From the NCBI GenBank assembly GCA_947367795.1, contig CANBER010000001.1, forward strand, positions 1,498-65,497: a stretch of DNA of 64,000 bases, in the 5' to 3' direction. Made by a program: the position numbers and the translations under genes. The notes beneath the pieces were generated by a model. The model did no database searches, was not told where the DNA came from, and saw only the letters and a program-made list of their open reading frames with translations. Each line of letters opens with the position of its first letter. Position 1 is the first letter of the stretch. The DNA comes from an uncultured Candidatus Saccharibacteria bacterium. Lineage in GTDB: Bacteria > Patescibacteriota > Saccharimonadia > Saccharimonadales > Saccharimonadaceae. This document shows positions 1,377 through 58,143 of this stretch, piece by piece.

Positions 1377-1383
1377 GGGGATA

Positions 1384-1424
1384 TTGACTTTTATCGTATG
1401 GTGTGATATAATGGAGGTATGGGG
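1384..1424 (+). promoter_or_regulatory. signature sigma70 promoter copy
   Basis: TTGACT-17-TATAAT then GGAGGTATGGGG. Confidence 0.8.
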
Positions 1425-1469
1425 GTCTTTTTTATGAAGGCCTACTACCTTAAAAGGAGAGTGATAGAG

Positions 1470-6495: not shown

Positions 6496-6597
6496 AATGC
6501 TCCTTAAAATAATAAAAAATTCTTGTTTCATTTTACCACAGATCGGTGGCCTTGTCTAGAGTTTCAGGCGGATTTTGGAGAATTTGCGCATTTCCTA

Positions 6598-6632
6598 TTG
6601 ACTTTTTAGCCTAAGTGTGCTATAATGGAAGA
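6598..6632 (+). promoter_or_regulatory. signature sigma70 promoter copy
   Basis: TATTGACTTTTTAGCCTAAGTGTGCTATAATGGAAG. Confidence 0.8.
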
Positions 6633-6697
6633 TGAGACTGGTTTCACACTAACTGGGGTGGACTGGGATAGAAAATTATTAAAAGGAGGGGATAGAG

Positions 6698-12163: not shown

Positions 12164-12203
12164 AGATATAATTATAGCATAAAAGCCAGCACACTACCAA
12201 ATA

Positions 12204-12244
12204 TTGACTTTTTGGCACAAGTGTGATATAATGGAAGGATAGGC
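12204..12244 (+). promoter_or_regulatory. signature sigma70 promoter copy
   Basis: TATTGACTTTTTGGCACAAGTGTGATATAATGGAAGGATAGG. Confidence 0.8.
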
Positions 12245-12268
12245 CTATAGTTTCTGTCGCGAAGGTGA

Positions 12269-12613: not shown

Positions 12614-13156
12614 ATGAAACTAACTTTGGTACTACATAATATTCGTTCCGCCTACAATGTGGGGGCGATTTTGAGGACGGCTGAGGGACTAGGCGTGGAA
12701 AAGGTAGTGCTGTCTGGCTATACCCCACGTTACAATGATACGGAGATTTTGCCGCATTTACGGGAAAAATTGAATCATCAGATCGAAAAGTCAGCTTTGG
12801 GTGCAGAAAAACTGGTTTTACAGGAAAATTTGGGCAAAAATCTGGCGGATCTATTGACTTTTCTTGATAAGTATGGTATAATGGAGGGATATACCCTAGT
12901 CGGGCTAGAAAATAACCTTAATGAGGCAGAACAAGCTCGACAGCTGATCTTGGGTAGTGAGAAATCACGGGAAATTTGCCAGAAAGCAGAGAAATTGGTG
13001 CTAGTGCTGGGTGAAGAAGTCGGGGGGATTGCCCCGGAAATACGAGCCAAGATGGAATATTTCCTAGAAATCCCAATGCATGGCAAGAAGGAATCTTTTA
13101 ATGTTTCAGTAGCGGCAAGTATCGCGATGTGGGGGTTGATGTGTTACAATAATTAA
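12614..13156 (+). CDS. TrmH/SpoU family RNA methyltransferase
   Basis: LHNIRSAYNVGAILRTAEGLG; LVLGEEVGGI; EIPMHGKKESFNVSVAASI. Confidence 0.92.
   Translation: MKLTLVLHNIRSAYNVGAILRTAEGLGVEKVVLSGYTPRYNDTEILPHLREKLNHQIEKSALGAEKLVLQENLGKNLADLLTFLDKYGIMEGYTLVGLENNLNEAEQARQLILGSEKSREICQKAEKLVLVLGEEVGGIAPEIRAKMEYFLEIPMHGKKESFNVSVAASIAMWGLMCYNN
12854..12890 (+). promoter_or_regulatory. signature promoter copy embedded in the TrmH CDS
   Basis: CTATTGACTTTTCTTGATAAGTATGGTATAATGGAGGGAT, 17-bp spacer. Confidence 0.65.
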
Positions 13157-18322: not shown

Positions 18323-18525
18323 CTATCCTTCGTCCGTAGTGGCAGTCTTGCAGTATCAGCCGGCAACTTGGGTGCGGTTGGCAACTTCGGCTACAGCAGA
18401 TCTTCCATTGCTCAAGCTTATGTTTCCGTTACCGCTGCCGGAATGTCATATTTGCTTTTTGACGCAGCTTTAATTTCGCCCACCAAAGACCAAAGTCCTC
18501 GTTGGTATGGTTTCCCCATCCGCTG
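18323..18525 (+). other. gene-less 203-bp CLec/FISUMP-like variable cassette (copy C)
   Basis: CTATCCTTCGTCCGTAGTGG...CGTTGGTATGGTTTCCCCATCCGCTG; reads LSFVRSG...RWYGFPIR*; in-frame stop at 18296 and no start codon after it. Confidence 0.85.
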
Positions 18526-18596
18526 ACAATCATCACAACAGTGCGTAAATATCTAAACCCTTAGCACTATCACTATATATAAACTAATAGGCTAGG

Positions 18597-18799
18597 CAGC
18601 GGATGGGGAAACCGTACCAACGATGGAGCGGGCCGCTCGACGGGAATACGCTAGACGCATTGAAGGCGAGGTAGTACGCGGTAGCAGAAGTAACTTGATC
18701 AAACATCACGGAAGTTGAACTCCAATCGTAGCCATGGACGCCGAAGCCCCCCAGAGAACCGTTGTTCAGATCAACGAGTCCACTACGGACGAAGGATAG
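18597..18799 (-). other. gene-less 203-bp CLec/FISUMP-like variable cassette (copy A)
   Basis: same ends; reads LSFVRSG...GYDWSS...AYYLAF...RWYGFPIRCLAY*. Confidence 0.85.
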
Positions 18800-19813: not shown

Positions 19814-20012
19814 AATATAACTTCCTGATTAACTTAATATTGTGGCATTTTGGTACAGCAATACAAAATGCCTGAAACTCTTGTTAGATTATAGCGCAAA
19901 TGGTCCAAAAATGCAAGAGGTTTTGGGGAGTTTTGAGGAAAGCCTCAACTTTAGGGATTATTTCGGAATTTTTGCTAAAATTTACTGTTTTTTACAAAAT
20001 GGCGCTTTTCTA

Positions 20013-20055
20013 TTGACTTTTTGGAGTAAGTGTGATATAATGGAAGGATAGGGTC
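20013..20055 (+). promoter_or_regulatory. signature sigma70 promoter copy
   Basis: TATTGACTTTTTGGAGTAAGTGTGATATAATGGAAGGATAGGGTC. Confidence 0.8.
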
Positions 20056-20102
20056 ATCTGATCAAAACCAGTAAAATAGCACTTTAGTAAGGAGGTGGAG
20101 TA

Positions 20103-23942: not shown

Positions 23943-24000
23943 CTTCCCACCTATTTAACACTGTTTTTATTGTAACATAAGCGAAAAGTCGATGATAGTC

Positions 24001-24035
24001 TTGACTTTTTTATCAATGTGTGCTATAATGGGAGG
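24001..24035 (+). promoter_or_regulatory. signature sigma70 promoter copy
   Basis: TTGACTTTTTTATCAATGTGTGCTATAATGGGAGG. Confidence 0.75.
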
Positions 24036-24221
24036 ATGGGGTACTCGCATCAATCAATTCCTAAAAAGTGTTGGGTAGGCGACCAGCAGAAGGTCTGCTA
24101 CGATTCGCGCGATGAAGCTGAGGCTGCGGCGTTAGTGGCGGAGCACGATTATGGTGCACCAAAATTGTCGGTCTATAAGTGCGAGTACGGCGATCATTGG
24201 CACTTGAGTTCACGAGGCTAA
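24036..24221 (+). CDS. small hypothetical protein, C/H motif
   Basis: near-leaderless ATG 24036; YKCEYGDHWHLSS. Confidence 0.7.
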   Translation: MGYSHQSIPKKCWVGDQQKVCYDSRDEAEAAALVAEHDYGAPKLSVYKCEYGDHWHLSSRG

Positions 24222-36217: not shown

Positions 36218-36420
36218 CTATCCTTCGTCCGTAGTGGAGATGTTACCATCCCAAGCGGATCACTTAGAGATACCGGAAATTATAACTGCACCTGGTCATC
36301 TTTCGCCCACGAGTTAAGTTCTTCAATTTTCGCAAAAGCATATGATTTGACTTTTACCGATCTAGGAATTCGGCCCATGAACAGCAGCGATGATCGTTGG
36401 TATGGCTTCCCCATCCGCTG
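36218..36420 (+). other. gene-less 203-bp CLec/FISUMP-like variable cassette (copy D)
   Basis: same ends; reads LSFVRSG...TWSS...AYDLTF...RWYGFPIRC; in-frame stop at 36185 and no start codon after it. Confidence 0.85.
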
Positions 36421-36510: not shown

Positions 36511-36536
36511 CGTTGGTTTATTTTCCCCATCCGCTG
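36511..36536 (+). repeat. isolated cassette 3' end
   Basis: CGTTGGTTTATTTTCCCCATCCGCTG vs CGTTGGTATGGTTTCCCCATCCGCTG (23/26). Confidence 0.85.
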
Positions 36537-37699: not shown

Positions 37700-37902
37700 C
37701 AGCGGATGGGGAAACCGTACCAACGATCGACCGGGCCGCCCGACGGGTAGACGCCAGGCGCACGGAAGTCGAGGAGGTACGCGGTAGCAGAAGTAACAGA
37801 AGTAAACACCCGTAAAGCCGAAGACCAGCCGTAACCATCGAGGCCGAAGCGCCCCATAGAACCGGCGCCCAGAATGACGGTCCCACTACGGACGAAGGAT
37901 AG
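37700..37902 (-). other. gene-less 203-bp CLec/FISUMP-like variable cassette (copy B)
   Basis: same ends; reads LSFVRSG...GYGWSS...AYLLDF...RWYGFPIRCN*; no ATG/GTG/TTG in frame upstream. Confidence 0.85.
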
Positions 37903-37929
37903 AGGAGGTGAGGCTATATTATAATATAC

Positions 37930-47130: not shown

Positions 47131-47194
47131 TAGACCATCATAACGCTAATTTTTAGCAAAGTCAAGCCTGTAGTGCCAAAAATCGACGGTTCTA

Positions 47195-47236
47195 TTGATT
47201 TTTTGGCTTAAGTATGCTATGATGGAAGGATAGGGT
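47195..47236 (+). promoter_or_regulatory. signature promoter variant
   Basis: TATTGATTTTTTGGCTTAAGTATGCTATGATGGAAGGATAGGGT. Confidence 0.7.
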
Positions 47237-47275
47237 GCTCTCAAGCAGAGAAACTCAGAATTATTTAAGAAAGAG

Positions 47276-50587: not shown

Positions 50588-50626
50588 CGGATTTAGGATA
50601 GATGTGAAGTCAAGAGGAAAATATTC

Positions 50627-50661
50627 TTGACTTTTTTGATAATGTGTGATACAATAGAGGT
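50627..50661 (+). promoter_or_regulatory. signature promoter variant
   Basis: TTGACTTTTTTGATAATGTGTGATACAATAGAGG. Confidence 0.7.
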
Positions 50662-50717
50662 AGAGCTGAGATAAAGCTTTAGGTTTTGATGTGGTCAAAC
50701 ATAGATTGGAGGGATAA

Positions 50718-57663: not shown

Positions 57664-58143
57664 TTAAGGCTTTTTCCGATAATTTGCAATTGCCGCAGCC
57701 AACGCCTCGTGCCCTAAGACCGAACAATGCACTTTGTGTTCAGGTAGACCGCCGAGGTAGGCAGTAATAGTTTCGGGTCCCACGGTGAGAGCTTCATCCA
57801 AAGTTTTACCTTTAATTAGTTCGGAAAGGGCCGAAGTCGCGGCAATTGCACTGGCGCAACCGTAGGTCTTCCAGCGAACGTCAGAAATCTTGCCGTCCTT
57901 GATCACTAAAAACATTTTCATTTGGTCACCACAGACCGGATTCCCTACAACACCTATGGCATCACAGGCGAATTGTGCTTCGTCGCCCATGAGGAAATTG
58001 CACGGGTTCAAAAAATGTTCTTTTACCAGGTCAGAATAAACCCAAGAAGTACTCGGAGATGCCCCAGAAGTAATTTTAGTATTGACTTTTTCACAATTCT
58101 GTGCTATAATGGAAGTATGGGGGGTGTTTTCAGATTGAGACAT
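57664..58143 (-). CDS. iscU: Fe-S scaffold IscU/NifU-like
   Basis: YSDLVKEHFLNP; GNPVCGD; YGCASAIA; KVHCS. Confidence 0.92.
   Translation of the reverse strand: MSQSENTPHTSIIAQNCEKVNTKITSGASPSTSWVYSDLVKEHFLNPCNFLMGDEAQFACDAIGVVGNPVCGDQMKMFLVIKDGKISDVRWKTYGCASAIAATSALSELIKGKTLDEALTVGPETITAYLGGLPEHKVHCSVLGHEALAAAIANYRKKP
58082..58124 (+). promoter_or_regulatory. signature promoter copy inside the iscU 5' end, pointing antisense into iscS
   Basis: TATTGACTTTTTCACAATTCTGTGCTATAATGGAAGTATGGGG. Confidence 0.65.

What the first reader, a model, noticed from the sequence alone, without database searches (positions are those of the whole stretch)
37700..37902. Cassettes A and B differ in a DGR-like, codon position 1/2-biased pattern
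SEEN: by hand, A (18597-18799) and B differ at about 43 of 201 nt with no indels. About 35 differences are at codon positions 1-2 and about 8 at position 3 (e.g. AAC/GGC, AAC/GCC, GAT/ATT, TAC/CTC, AAT/CGT, CAT/GAT). Neither copy has A at all variable sites, so neither is the template of the other. KNOWN: DGR reverse transcriptases randomise template adenines, typically in AAY codons, giving this spectrum. Ordinary drift gives third-position bias. INFERENCE: A and B are independent mutagenised products of one unseen A-rich template, archived at non-coding sites. That would link DGR output to a stored cassette library.
Basis: partly seen in the sequence, partly recalled or inferred. Interest (0 to 1): 0.82.

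Follow-up and report, generated by a model that had tools for sequence, protein, structure and literature searches.

The report
Retroelement-scarred silent cassettes feeding one adhesin gene
Cassettes A and B are two of about 70 start-less spare copies of the variable tip of one surface-protein gene in a mouse-gut Saccharibacteria genome; they carry the adenine-only scars of a retroelement found on another contig, and whole spare copies, B among them, turn up in the expressed gene in other samples.

Summary
A and B differ at 43 of 203 nt with no indels, split 21/14/8 by codon position.

The predicted template exists. On another contig a DGR-type reverse transcriptase (IGNLTSQ, YVDD) sits next to a 203-nt template repeat with 14 AAY codons. 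Of the A/B differences, 21 lie at template adenines, all at codon positions 1-2. The other 22 are ordinary backbone differences.

A and B are gene-less. The 860-kb genome holds at least 69 such cassettes. Frame 0 is open in 40/40 full copies, and most have no start codon. The conserved 5' flank is leftover coding sequence (NYNIASPP).

One full-length 605-aa surface protein gene lies convergent to the template and RT. In near-identical strains from other samples its first 534 aa do not change. Its last 71 aa differ, and in several samples they equal particular silent cassettes:
- B for 167 nt
- C36+4664 at every interior base
- C7-262 at every interior base

The silent cassettes themselves are identical across independent samples.

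Best reading: a DGR combined with a silent-cassette gene-conversion archive. I found no description of this combination. Caveats: the evidence rests on short-read assemblies, there is no time series, and the template locus behaves oddly in some samples.

The parts
37700..37902 (-). Cassette B, a silent gene-less copy of the 68-codon variable region. It differs from the template at 38 of 203 sites, 25 of them template adenines. It has no IMH-type 3' flank (TAATTAATT follows CCGCTG).
   Evidence: Identical at single-copy depth in four runs and in two further assemblies. Its first 167 nt are found in the expression site of L064.
37903..37927 (-). 5' arm extension of B. ATTATAATATAGCCTCACCTCCT(CT) is leftover coding sequence (N)YNIASPP of the full-length gene. 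It is not a promoter.
   Evidence: Compared with full-length protein P0001 and the expression-site DNA.
18597..18799 (-). Cassette A, a silent copy directly downstream of rpsG. It differs from the template at 41 of 203 sites, 21 of them template adenines.
   Evidence: Identical at single-copy depth in runs X1, X7 and X9, and partly different in X16.
18567..18596 (-). IMH-type 3' flank of A (CCTAGCCTATTAGTTTATATATAGTGATAG). It includes the in-frame stop after ...RCLAY. Its first 28 nt are the same as at the expression site.
18323..18525 (+). Cassette C, a silent copy far from the template (98 mismatches, no adenine bias). It lies tail-to-tail with A.
   Evidence: Stable in X1, X7 and X9.
36218..36420 (+). 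Cassette D, a silent copy far from the template (90 mismatches, no adenine bias).
   Evidence: 100% identical in assembly L069.
36511..36536 (+). Orphan 3' conserved arm (…TTTTCCCCATCCGCTG) with no cassette body.

Best explanation
A and B are silent, promoter-less, 5'-truncated copies of the last 68 codons of one surface-protein gene of a mouse-gut Saccharibacteria. They belong to a genome-wide archive of about 70 such cassettes.

The full-length gene encodes 605 aa: an N-terminal membrane helix, a beta-sandwich and a Fib_succ_major-like C-terminal domain. It lies convergent to a diversity-generating retroelement (RT plus an adenine-rich template repeat).

Two processes appear to vary the tip of that protein.
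1. Mutagenic retrohoming from the template randomises the 14 AAY codons. This left the adenine-specific scars seen in A, B and about 19 other cassettes.
2. Faithful homologous recombination (gene conversion) uses the conserved 5' arm (about 23-50 nt) and 3' arm (about 27-60 nt). It copies whole or partial silent cassettes into the expression site.

Shown here:
- the template and RT
- the adenine bias
- the gene-less state and preserved reading frame of the cassettes
- the expression site and its sample-to-sample replacement by sequences identical to silent cassettes
- the stability of the silent cassettes

Inferred:
- that the transfer is RecA-type gene conversion
- that the DGR is active now
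- that A and B got their scars either in place or by being copied back from the expression site
- that the purpose is to change the binding specificity or antigenicity of an adhesin
For: Template and RT:
- PF00078 RT at C9:34168-34698 with IGNLTSQ and YVDD.
- Template repeat with 14 AAY codons.
- Among 21 template-close cassettes, 51% of cells differ at template adenines against 8% elsewhere. All four bases occur at the AAY sites.

Cassette family:
- 69 5'-motif hits, 41 of them exactly 203 nt.
- Frame 0 is open in 40/40 full silent copies. The other five frames carry stops in 36-40/40. Shuffles expect about 33/40 copies with a frame-0 stop.
- Most copies have no start codon or upstream ORF.

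Expression site:
- Order is gene-VR-flank-950 nt-TR locus-RT in 158-249 kb contigs.
- The 11 full-length members shown of the 23-member protein cluster share the N-terminal 534 aa. All 11 have different last 71 aa.

DNA identity to silent cassettes:
- L066 VR matches C36+4664 at every interior base, although that cassette is 81 mismatches from the template.
- L068 matches C7-262 at every interior base.
- L064 matches B over the first 167 nt.
- L067 matches C27-81 at 77/77 compared.

Faithful copying: C36+4664 has 42 interior adenines and none is changed. At 20% or more misincorporation per adenine the probability is below 1e-4.

Stability contrast:
- Silent copies are stable.
- The G000 VR joined to the gene's 3' end has zero depth at 99% identity in X1, X7 and X16, although its flanks are present.

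Other:
- RecA is present.
- The same architecture occurs in a second species with 73 cassettes, while canonical single-VR DGRs occur in other congeners.
Against: - All cross-sample evidence comes from short-read assemblies and Logan contigs. Repeats of 30-78 nt around the cassettes can mislead assemblers. Two contigs (L087, L088) leave the VR into other flanks.
- G000's own contig also runs from that VR into the TK gene. So the VR tested may belong to the second, truncated gene 3' fragment rather than the expression site.
- There is no time series in one lineage. 'Switching' could instead be fixed differences between very close strains.
- The silent cassettes were never seen to change by adenine-only steps, so DGR action on them in place is not shown.
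- The residual differences between expression VRs and donors (10 of 14 at template adenines) fit either a short DGR tract or a partial conversion tract that left the resident 3' end.
- No Avd gene was recognised.
- Foldseek gave no C-type-lectin match.
- In some samples the template locus itself carries a mutated cassette. The simple model does not predict this.
Confidence: 0.75

Rival explanations
1. The cassettes are inert leftovers: beheaded target-gene paralogs or duplicated gene ends that the DGR kept rewriting. They have no donor role, and the matches between expression-site VRs and silent cassettes are assembly chimeras made through the shared arms.
For: - The cassettes have no start codon.
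- AAY-to-NNY changes cannot create stops.
- Two contigs leave the VR into other flanks.
- The template locus is assembled inconsistently between samples.
Against: - Frame 0 is also open in all 18 template-distant cassettes, with protein-like conservation. Drift would not keep that.
- The L066 3' junction GGTTACCCCATCCGCTGCCTAGCC keeps the donor's rare GGTTACCCC variant. The cassette shares only about 16 nt with any flank-bearing copy there, which is too short to bridge at k>=21.
- Contigs of 158-249 kb pass through the gene, VR, spacer and RT.
- The VR joined to the gene's 3' end varies between samples while silent copies do not.
- The trait is kept at about 70 copies in two species with 0.8-0.9 Mb genomes.
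Confidence: 0.13
2. The cassettes are alternative templates. They are transcribed and the DGR reverse transcriptase writes them into the VR, so scaffold switching is RT-driven rather than recombinational.
For: - The cassette boundaries coincide with the template/VR homology boundaries.
- In some samples a cassette-like sequence occupies the template locus, and in L065 it is identical to the VR.
- An earlier scan note on another DGR proposed this mechanism.
Against: - Copies at the expression site are exact at 42 adenines (C36+4664) and 30 adenines (C7-262). An adenine-mutagenic RT should not do that.
- The silent cassettes lack the template's 5' leader and 3' flank.
- Where donor and VR differ, the VR carries template-type bases at sites where the donor has no A.
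Confidence: 0.06
3. There is no retroelement involvement. A and B are ordinary diverged paralogous fragments under diversifying selection.
For: Half of the A/B differences are at non-adenine sites, and many family members show no adenine bias.
Against: - An RT with DGR motifs lies next to an AAY-rich template.
- Up to 84% of a cassette's mismatches fall on the 19% of sites that are template adenines.
- All four bases occur at those sites across cassettes.
Confidence: 0.02

Closest known systems
Diversity-generating retroelements (Bordetella phage BPP-1 mtd/TR/brt; cellular DGRs of Legionella, Treponema and the candidate phyla radiation)
   Same: - RT with the [I/L/V]GxxxSQ motif.
- An intergenic adenine-rich template with AAY codons.
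- A variable region at the very 3' end of a surface-protein gene.
- Mismatches concentrated at template adenines.
- Template and VR share sequence up to CCGCTGCCTA and then diverge, as IMH and IMH* do.
- A hairpin downstream of the VR.
   Different: - About 70 additional VR-length copies have no gene attached and are dispersed over the whole 0.86-Mb genome. About half of them are not derivable from the template.
- Whole cassettes are copied faithfully into the target gene.
- No Avd was recognised.
- Surveys I could read report mostly one or two VRs per DGR (PMC11661182) and place VRs inside coding sequences (PMC8144416).
Silent-cassette antigenic variation by gene conversion (Neisseria pilE/pilS, Borrelia vlsE/vls, Anaplasma msp2 functional pseudogenes, Treponema tprK donor sites)
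   Same: - One expression site plus many promoter-less truncated copies.
- Conserved arms around a variable core.
- The donors stay unchanged while the expression site takes on donor sequence, either whole or in segments.
- The donors are dispersed, as in msp2 and pilS.
   Different: - The expression site is also the target of a retroelement that creates new sequence, so the repertoire is not limited to the archive.
- Many archive members carry retroelement scars.
- The organism is a non-pathogenic ultra-small epibiont.
- Dependence on RecA or other factors is untested.
Shufflons and invertible multi-gene systems (R64 pilV shufflon, Mycoplasma pulmonis vsa)
   Same: Alternative C-terminal segments for one protein, with tail-to-tail cassette pairs.
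   Different: - The cassettes are scattered over at least 30 contigs, so inversion between them would scramble the chromosome.
- The donors are retained unchanged.
- No dedicated recombinase was looked for or seen next to the loci.

Membership tests
Diversity-generating retroelement | Reverse transcriptase of the DGR type (motif [I/L/V]GxxxSQ plus YxDD) | tested here: met
   RVT_1 hit over the cut-off. The translation shows IGNLTSQ and YVDD. That this motif is diagnostic is from my own knowledge.
Diversity-generating retroelement | Template/variable repeat pair whose mismatches fall at template adenines | tested here: met
   - In the closest cassettes, up to 84% of mismatches fall at A.
- B has 25 of 38 at A and A has 21 of 41.
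- Across the 21 close copies, 51% of cells differ at A sites against 8% elsewhere.
- Not met for about 19 distant cassettes.
Diversity-generating retroelement | Variable region inside, and at the 3' end of, a target gene | tested here: not met
   Not met for A and B themselves: they have no start codon and no upstream ORF. It is met for the single full-length gene next to the template and RT.
Diversity-generating retroelement | IMH at the VR versus IMH* at the template, with a downstream hairpin | tested here: inconclusive
   VR copies continue CCGCTGCCTAGCCTATTAG..., and at the expression site a hairpin follows (CACAAGTAGACC..GGTCTACTTTGTG). The template continues CCGCTGCCTATTTTGCC. Function was not testable. 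B lacks this flank.
Diversity-generating retroelement | Accessory variability determinant (Avd) | tested here: inconclusive
   No Pfam hit among the small ORFs around the RT and in the spacer. A divergent Avd cannot be excluded.
Diversity-generating retroelement | C-type-lectin-fold scaffold for the VR | tested here: inconclusive
   The AF2 model of the C-terminal domain is confident (pLDDT 89.6), but Foldseek found no PDB neighbour (best E=1.2). There is only a weak Fib_succ_major hit, which is also precomputed for homologues.
Silent-cassette gene-conversion variation systems | One expression site plus multiple promoter-less partial copies with conserved arms | tested here: met
Silent-cassette gene-conversion variation systems | The expression site acquires sequence identical to silent copies while the silent copies stay unchanged | tested here: met
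   Shown between samples of near-identical strains (against 48, 49, 76). It is not time-resolved and rests on short-read assemblies.
Silent-cassette gene-conversion variation systems | Dependence on homologous recombination machinery | not testable with these tools
   A RecA gene is present. Dependence needs genetics.

The most novel reading that the evidence does not exclude
Information flows both ways. The retroelement invents new tips at the expression site. Variants are then copied back into dispersed silent slots by conversions bounded by the cassette arms, which would explain why cassettes without any IMH flank, such as B, carry adenine scars. They are recalled later, giving a heritable memory of past binding specificities. 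The archive can even overwrite or re-seed the template locus, as the cassette-like sequences at the template locus in some samples suggest.
Probability: 0.3. Interest if true: 0.92.

Novelty: new variant of a known kind. Interest (0 to 1): 0.82.

Why it matters
DGRs and silent-cassette gene conversion are the two classic ways bacteria hypervary a surface protein, and they have been treated as separate inventions. Here both seem to act on the same 68 codons of one gene, in an 0.86-Mb epibiont genome that spends about 1.6% of its DNA on the archive.

If confirmed, this has several consequences:
- It explains the 'orphan' VR-like repeats that DGR finders discard.
- It shows how a DGR can escape the limits of a single template scaffold.
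- It gives a tractable case for asking what Saccharibacteria need to vary: attachment to host bacteria, or escape from phage or gut IgA. The strain is widespread in laboratory mice.

Tried and rejected
- Pfam and NCBIfam on the 69-79 aa cassette peptides gave nothing.
- I first read the conserved TATAAT...CCTCACCTCCT 5' flank as a promoter or anti-SD element, or as an SD on the opposite strand. I rejected this when the full-length protein showed it encodes NYNIASPP.
- A structured-RNA or MITE reading was rejected because only one frame is open in all copies.
- A shufflon or inversion reading was rejected because the donors are dispersed and retained.
- Looking for a long ORF upstream of every cassette found none longer than 118 codons.
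- RNA runs could not test whether B is transcribed. Two 'RNA-Seq' runs look like DNA, and two metatranscriptomes had no depth on B's neighbours. Metatranscriptome contigs do cover the target gene.
- Whole-protein Foldseek hit only pilin-like beta-sandwiches weakly, for the N-terminal domain. The profile search of PDB sequences gave nothing.
- No PacBio run was listed.
- Literature searches for a DGR combined with silent cassettes, gene conversion, FISUMP or Saccharibacteria found no description.

Full report
**Observation.** B (window 37700-37902) and A (18597-18799) are both sense on the - strand. They align without gaps and differ at 43 of 203 positions, split 21/14/8 over codon positions 1/2/3. 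The window also holds two + strand copies (18323-18525 and 36218-36420) and an orphan 3' arm.

**The template and RT exist.** The window is part of an 860-kb, 38-contig genome. Its only RVT_1 match lies on contig C9. The protein has IGNLTSQ and YVDD. IGNLTSQ is the DGR hallmark, from my own knowledge.

About 340 nt downstream lies a 203-nt repeat with 14 AAY codons and flanks unlike the other copies. Upstream of it sits a promoter-like TATAAT box, and behind it a hairpin.
- Template adenines are 19% of sites.
- They carry 25 of B's 38 mismatches and 21 of A's 41.
- In the closest cassettes they carry up to 84% of mismatches.
- Over 21 template-close cassettes, 51% of cells differ at adenine sites against 8% elsewhere, and all four bases occur at each AAY site.

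Of the 43 A/B differences, 21 are at template adenines (Fisher p=3e-7), and all 21 are at codon positions 1-2. The other 22 are spread 8/6/8, and 15 of them lie at positions 74-105, where the family shows a few mosaic haplotypes. So the retroelement signature is real, but it explains only half of the A/B divergence.

**A family of gene-less cassettes.**
- The 5' motif occurs 69 times and 41 copies are exactly 203 nt. Many lie at contig ends, in tail-to-tail pairs or in tandem arrays.
- All keep one frame open: LSFVRSG...GSLR.FG..GY.WSS...AY.L.F...PS.GP..RW.GFPIRC(LAY*). Frame 0 has 0 stops in 40 full silent copies. The other five frames have stops in 36-40 of 40. Shuffles expect about 33 of 40 copies with a frame-0 stop.
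- The frame runs upstream only 0-118 codons, usually with no start codon, into terminators, tRNA genes or other cassettes.
- About 19 copies, including the two + strand copies in the window, are 61-98 mismatches from the template and show no adenine bias.
- The conserved 5' flank TATAATATAGCCTCACCTCCT is not a promoter. It encodes NYNIASPP, the residues that precede the VR in the full-length protein.
- The cassettes are therefore beheaded gene ends that mostly share one truncation point.

**The expression site.** The genome has five full-length paralogues of a roughly 560-600 aa surface protein. Four have their own diverged C-termini. The fifth, on C19, runs off its contig just before the VR.

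Its exact N-terminus was found in a 23-member protein cluster. The 11 full-length members shown share an essentially identical first 534 aa, and all 11 have different last 71 aa.

Contigs of 158-249 kb from ENA assemblies give this order: infB, small ORFs, target gene, VR, a 78-nt flank with a hairpin, a spacer of about 950 nt, the template locus, RT, then fmt-def-priA. This is a canonical convergent DGR. It joins G000 contigs C19, C8 (right end) and C9.

At the DNA level:
- The VR of L066 matches silent cassette C36+4664 at every interior base, although that cassette is 81 mismatches from the template.
- L068 matches C7-262 at every interior base.
- L064 matches the window's cassette B over its first 167 nt.
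- L067 matches C27-81/C16-81 over the 77 nt compared.
- Other samples carry VRs that are not in the archive. Judged by amino-acid changes, these differ from the template mainly at AAY codons.

**Silent copies are stable and the expression site is not.**
- B is identical at single-copy depth in four runs from four studies.
- The 3,050-nt region containing B and D is 100% identical in one further independent assembly (L069). The 2,058 nt held for a second (L070), which cover B but not D, are also 100% identical.
- A and the neighbouring + strand copy are identical in three runs and partly different in a fourth.
- By contrast, the interior of the G000 VR that is joined to the gene's 3' end has zero depth at 99% identity in X1, X7 and X16, although its flanks are present.
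- Eleven and a half kilobases upstream of the VR are 99.98% identical between assemblies.

**Two mechanisms.** The whole-cassette copies are exact at 42 interior adenines (C36+4664) and 30 (C7-262). At 20% or more misincorporation per adenine, the probability of this is below 1e-4 for C36+4664 and about 1e-3 for C7-262. So the transfer is faithful. I infer homologous gene conversion through the conserved arms. RecA is present.

Between six expression VRs and their donors there are 14 differences in about 1,000 nt.
- Ten are at template adenines (binomial p=3e-5).
- Two of the remaining four are at the cassette boundaries.
- The adenine-site differences cluster at the 3' end, at positions 154-185.

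This pattern fits either a short template-derived retrohoming tract or a partial conversion tract that kept the resident 3' end. I cannot separate the two.

Only 9 of 21 template-close cassettes keep the IMH-type 3' flank, and B does not. So the adenine scars are not tied to a local IMH. This favours, but does not prove, copying back from the expression site.

**Relatives.** The organism is an uncultured Candidatus Saccharibacteria of the mouse gut. Congeners have the same RT, Asn-rich template and convergent VR layout. Some have just one full-length target. One other species has 73 gene-less cassettes, and several have 15-28. Other families of the order have essentially none: a single weak match in 16 genomes.

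**The protein.** The AF2 model is confident (pLDDT 87.7) and shows an N-terminal membrane helix, a beta-sandwich with weak pilin-like matches, and a C-terminal domain. The C-terminal domain modelled alone (pLDDT 89.6) has no PDB neighbour by Foldseek, so a C-type-lectin fold is not shown. Metatranscriptome contigs cover the gene.

**Unexplained.**
- In three ENA assemblies, and in Logan contigs of X16, the template's 5' flank is followed by a mutated, VR-like cassette with the VR-type 3' flank. In L065 this cassette is identical to the VR.
- X1 and X16 lack words of the A-rich template, while X7 and X9 have them.
- An X7 contig suggests that the spacer can invert.
- Possible causes are conversion of the template by a cassette, inversion between the inverted VR/template pair, or assembly of a mixed population.

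**Caveats.**
- The evidence comes from short-read assemblies and contigs only.
- The cassettes are flanked by repeats of 30-78 nt. Two contigs (L087, L088) leave the VR into other flanks. G000's own contig does the same, running from the VR into the TK gene, so the VR tested may belong to the second, truncated gene 3' fragment instead.
- There is no time series.

Against chimeras as the general explanation:
- The L066 3' junction keeps the donor's rare GGTTACCCC variant, and the cassette shares only about 16 nt with any flank-bearing copy there.
- The long contigs run through both unique sides of the VR.

**Novelty.** Six full-text searches found no paper that combines a DGR with a silent-cassette archive. 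The surveys I read report mainly one or two VRs per DGR and VRs inside genes. Earlier notes of this scan saw orphan cassettes in other Saccharibacteria genomes. I read them only after the analysis above, so they are leads and not support.

Noticed in passing
G000 C9:35269-35480 (off-window; L032:8836-9047), compared with L064:12826-13110, L065 and L067: The template locus has two states. G000 and runs X7 and X9 have the A-rich template followed by CCTATTTTG. Three ENA assemblies and run X16 have a mutated VR-like cassette with the VR-type 78-nt flank behind the same template 5' flank. In L065 that cassette is identical to the expression-site VR.
   Followed up: partly
Off-window: the ~950-nt spacer between VR and template (L032:9048-10000; L064:11872-12824): The spacer is bounded by short inverted repeats, CCGCGGT(GAGT/TCG)GTGCCGATCTTT. 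An X7 contig joins the VR-side repeat to the template-proximal end of the spacer, as if the spacer can invert. It holds a 98-aa ORF with a weak CdiA_C hit.
   Followed up: partly
window 1379-1430, 6593-6644, 12199-12250, 12849-12900, 20008-20059, 23996-24047, 47190-47241, 50622-50673, 58077-58128: Nine + strand copies of a strong promoter-like unit, TTGAC-N17-TATAAT followed by GGAAGGATAGGG. Its tail resembles the reverse complement of the cassette 5' end.
   Followed up: no
G000 C15 right end (L063) and C19 left end (L062): A second, beheaded copy of the last ~130 codons of the target gene starts right after a terminator hairpin on C15. It shares a 77-nt contig overlap with the full-length gene. 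The VR flank also continues into a TK-lysS context (C8, L087), so there may be a second long acceptor site.
   Followed up: partly
G000 C37:683-2449, C6:24669-26391, C2:22985-21507 (-), C27:3920-2367 (-): Four further full-length paralogues of the surface protein (35-39% identical). Each has its own diverged, non-cassette C-terminus ending ...RC(V/L)A(R/K).
   Followed up: partly
G014 (same genus), e.g. L050-L061: A second species has 73 gene-less cassettes with a different conserved 3' flank (CTAGCTAGTTAGAGTATAGGTAGTAGGAGGATAG) and the same template/convergent-VR layout.
   Followed up: partly
P0001 model residues 55-205: The N-terminal beta-sandwich of the target protein gives weak Foldseek matches to chaperone-usher pilins and TasA fibre subunits (E about 5e-4). 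The C-terminal variable domain has no PDB neighbour at all.
   Followed up: partly
G000 C36:4431-5306 and C37:1-300: Tandem arrays of cassettes at 233-295 nt spacing with a 30-36 nt spacer. The unit length is not a multiple of three, so the arrays are not one ORF.
   Followed up: no
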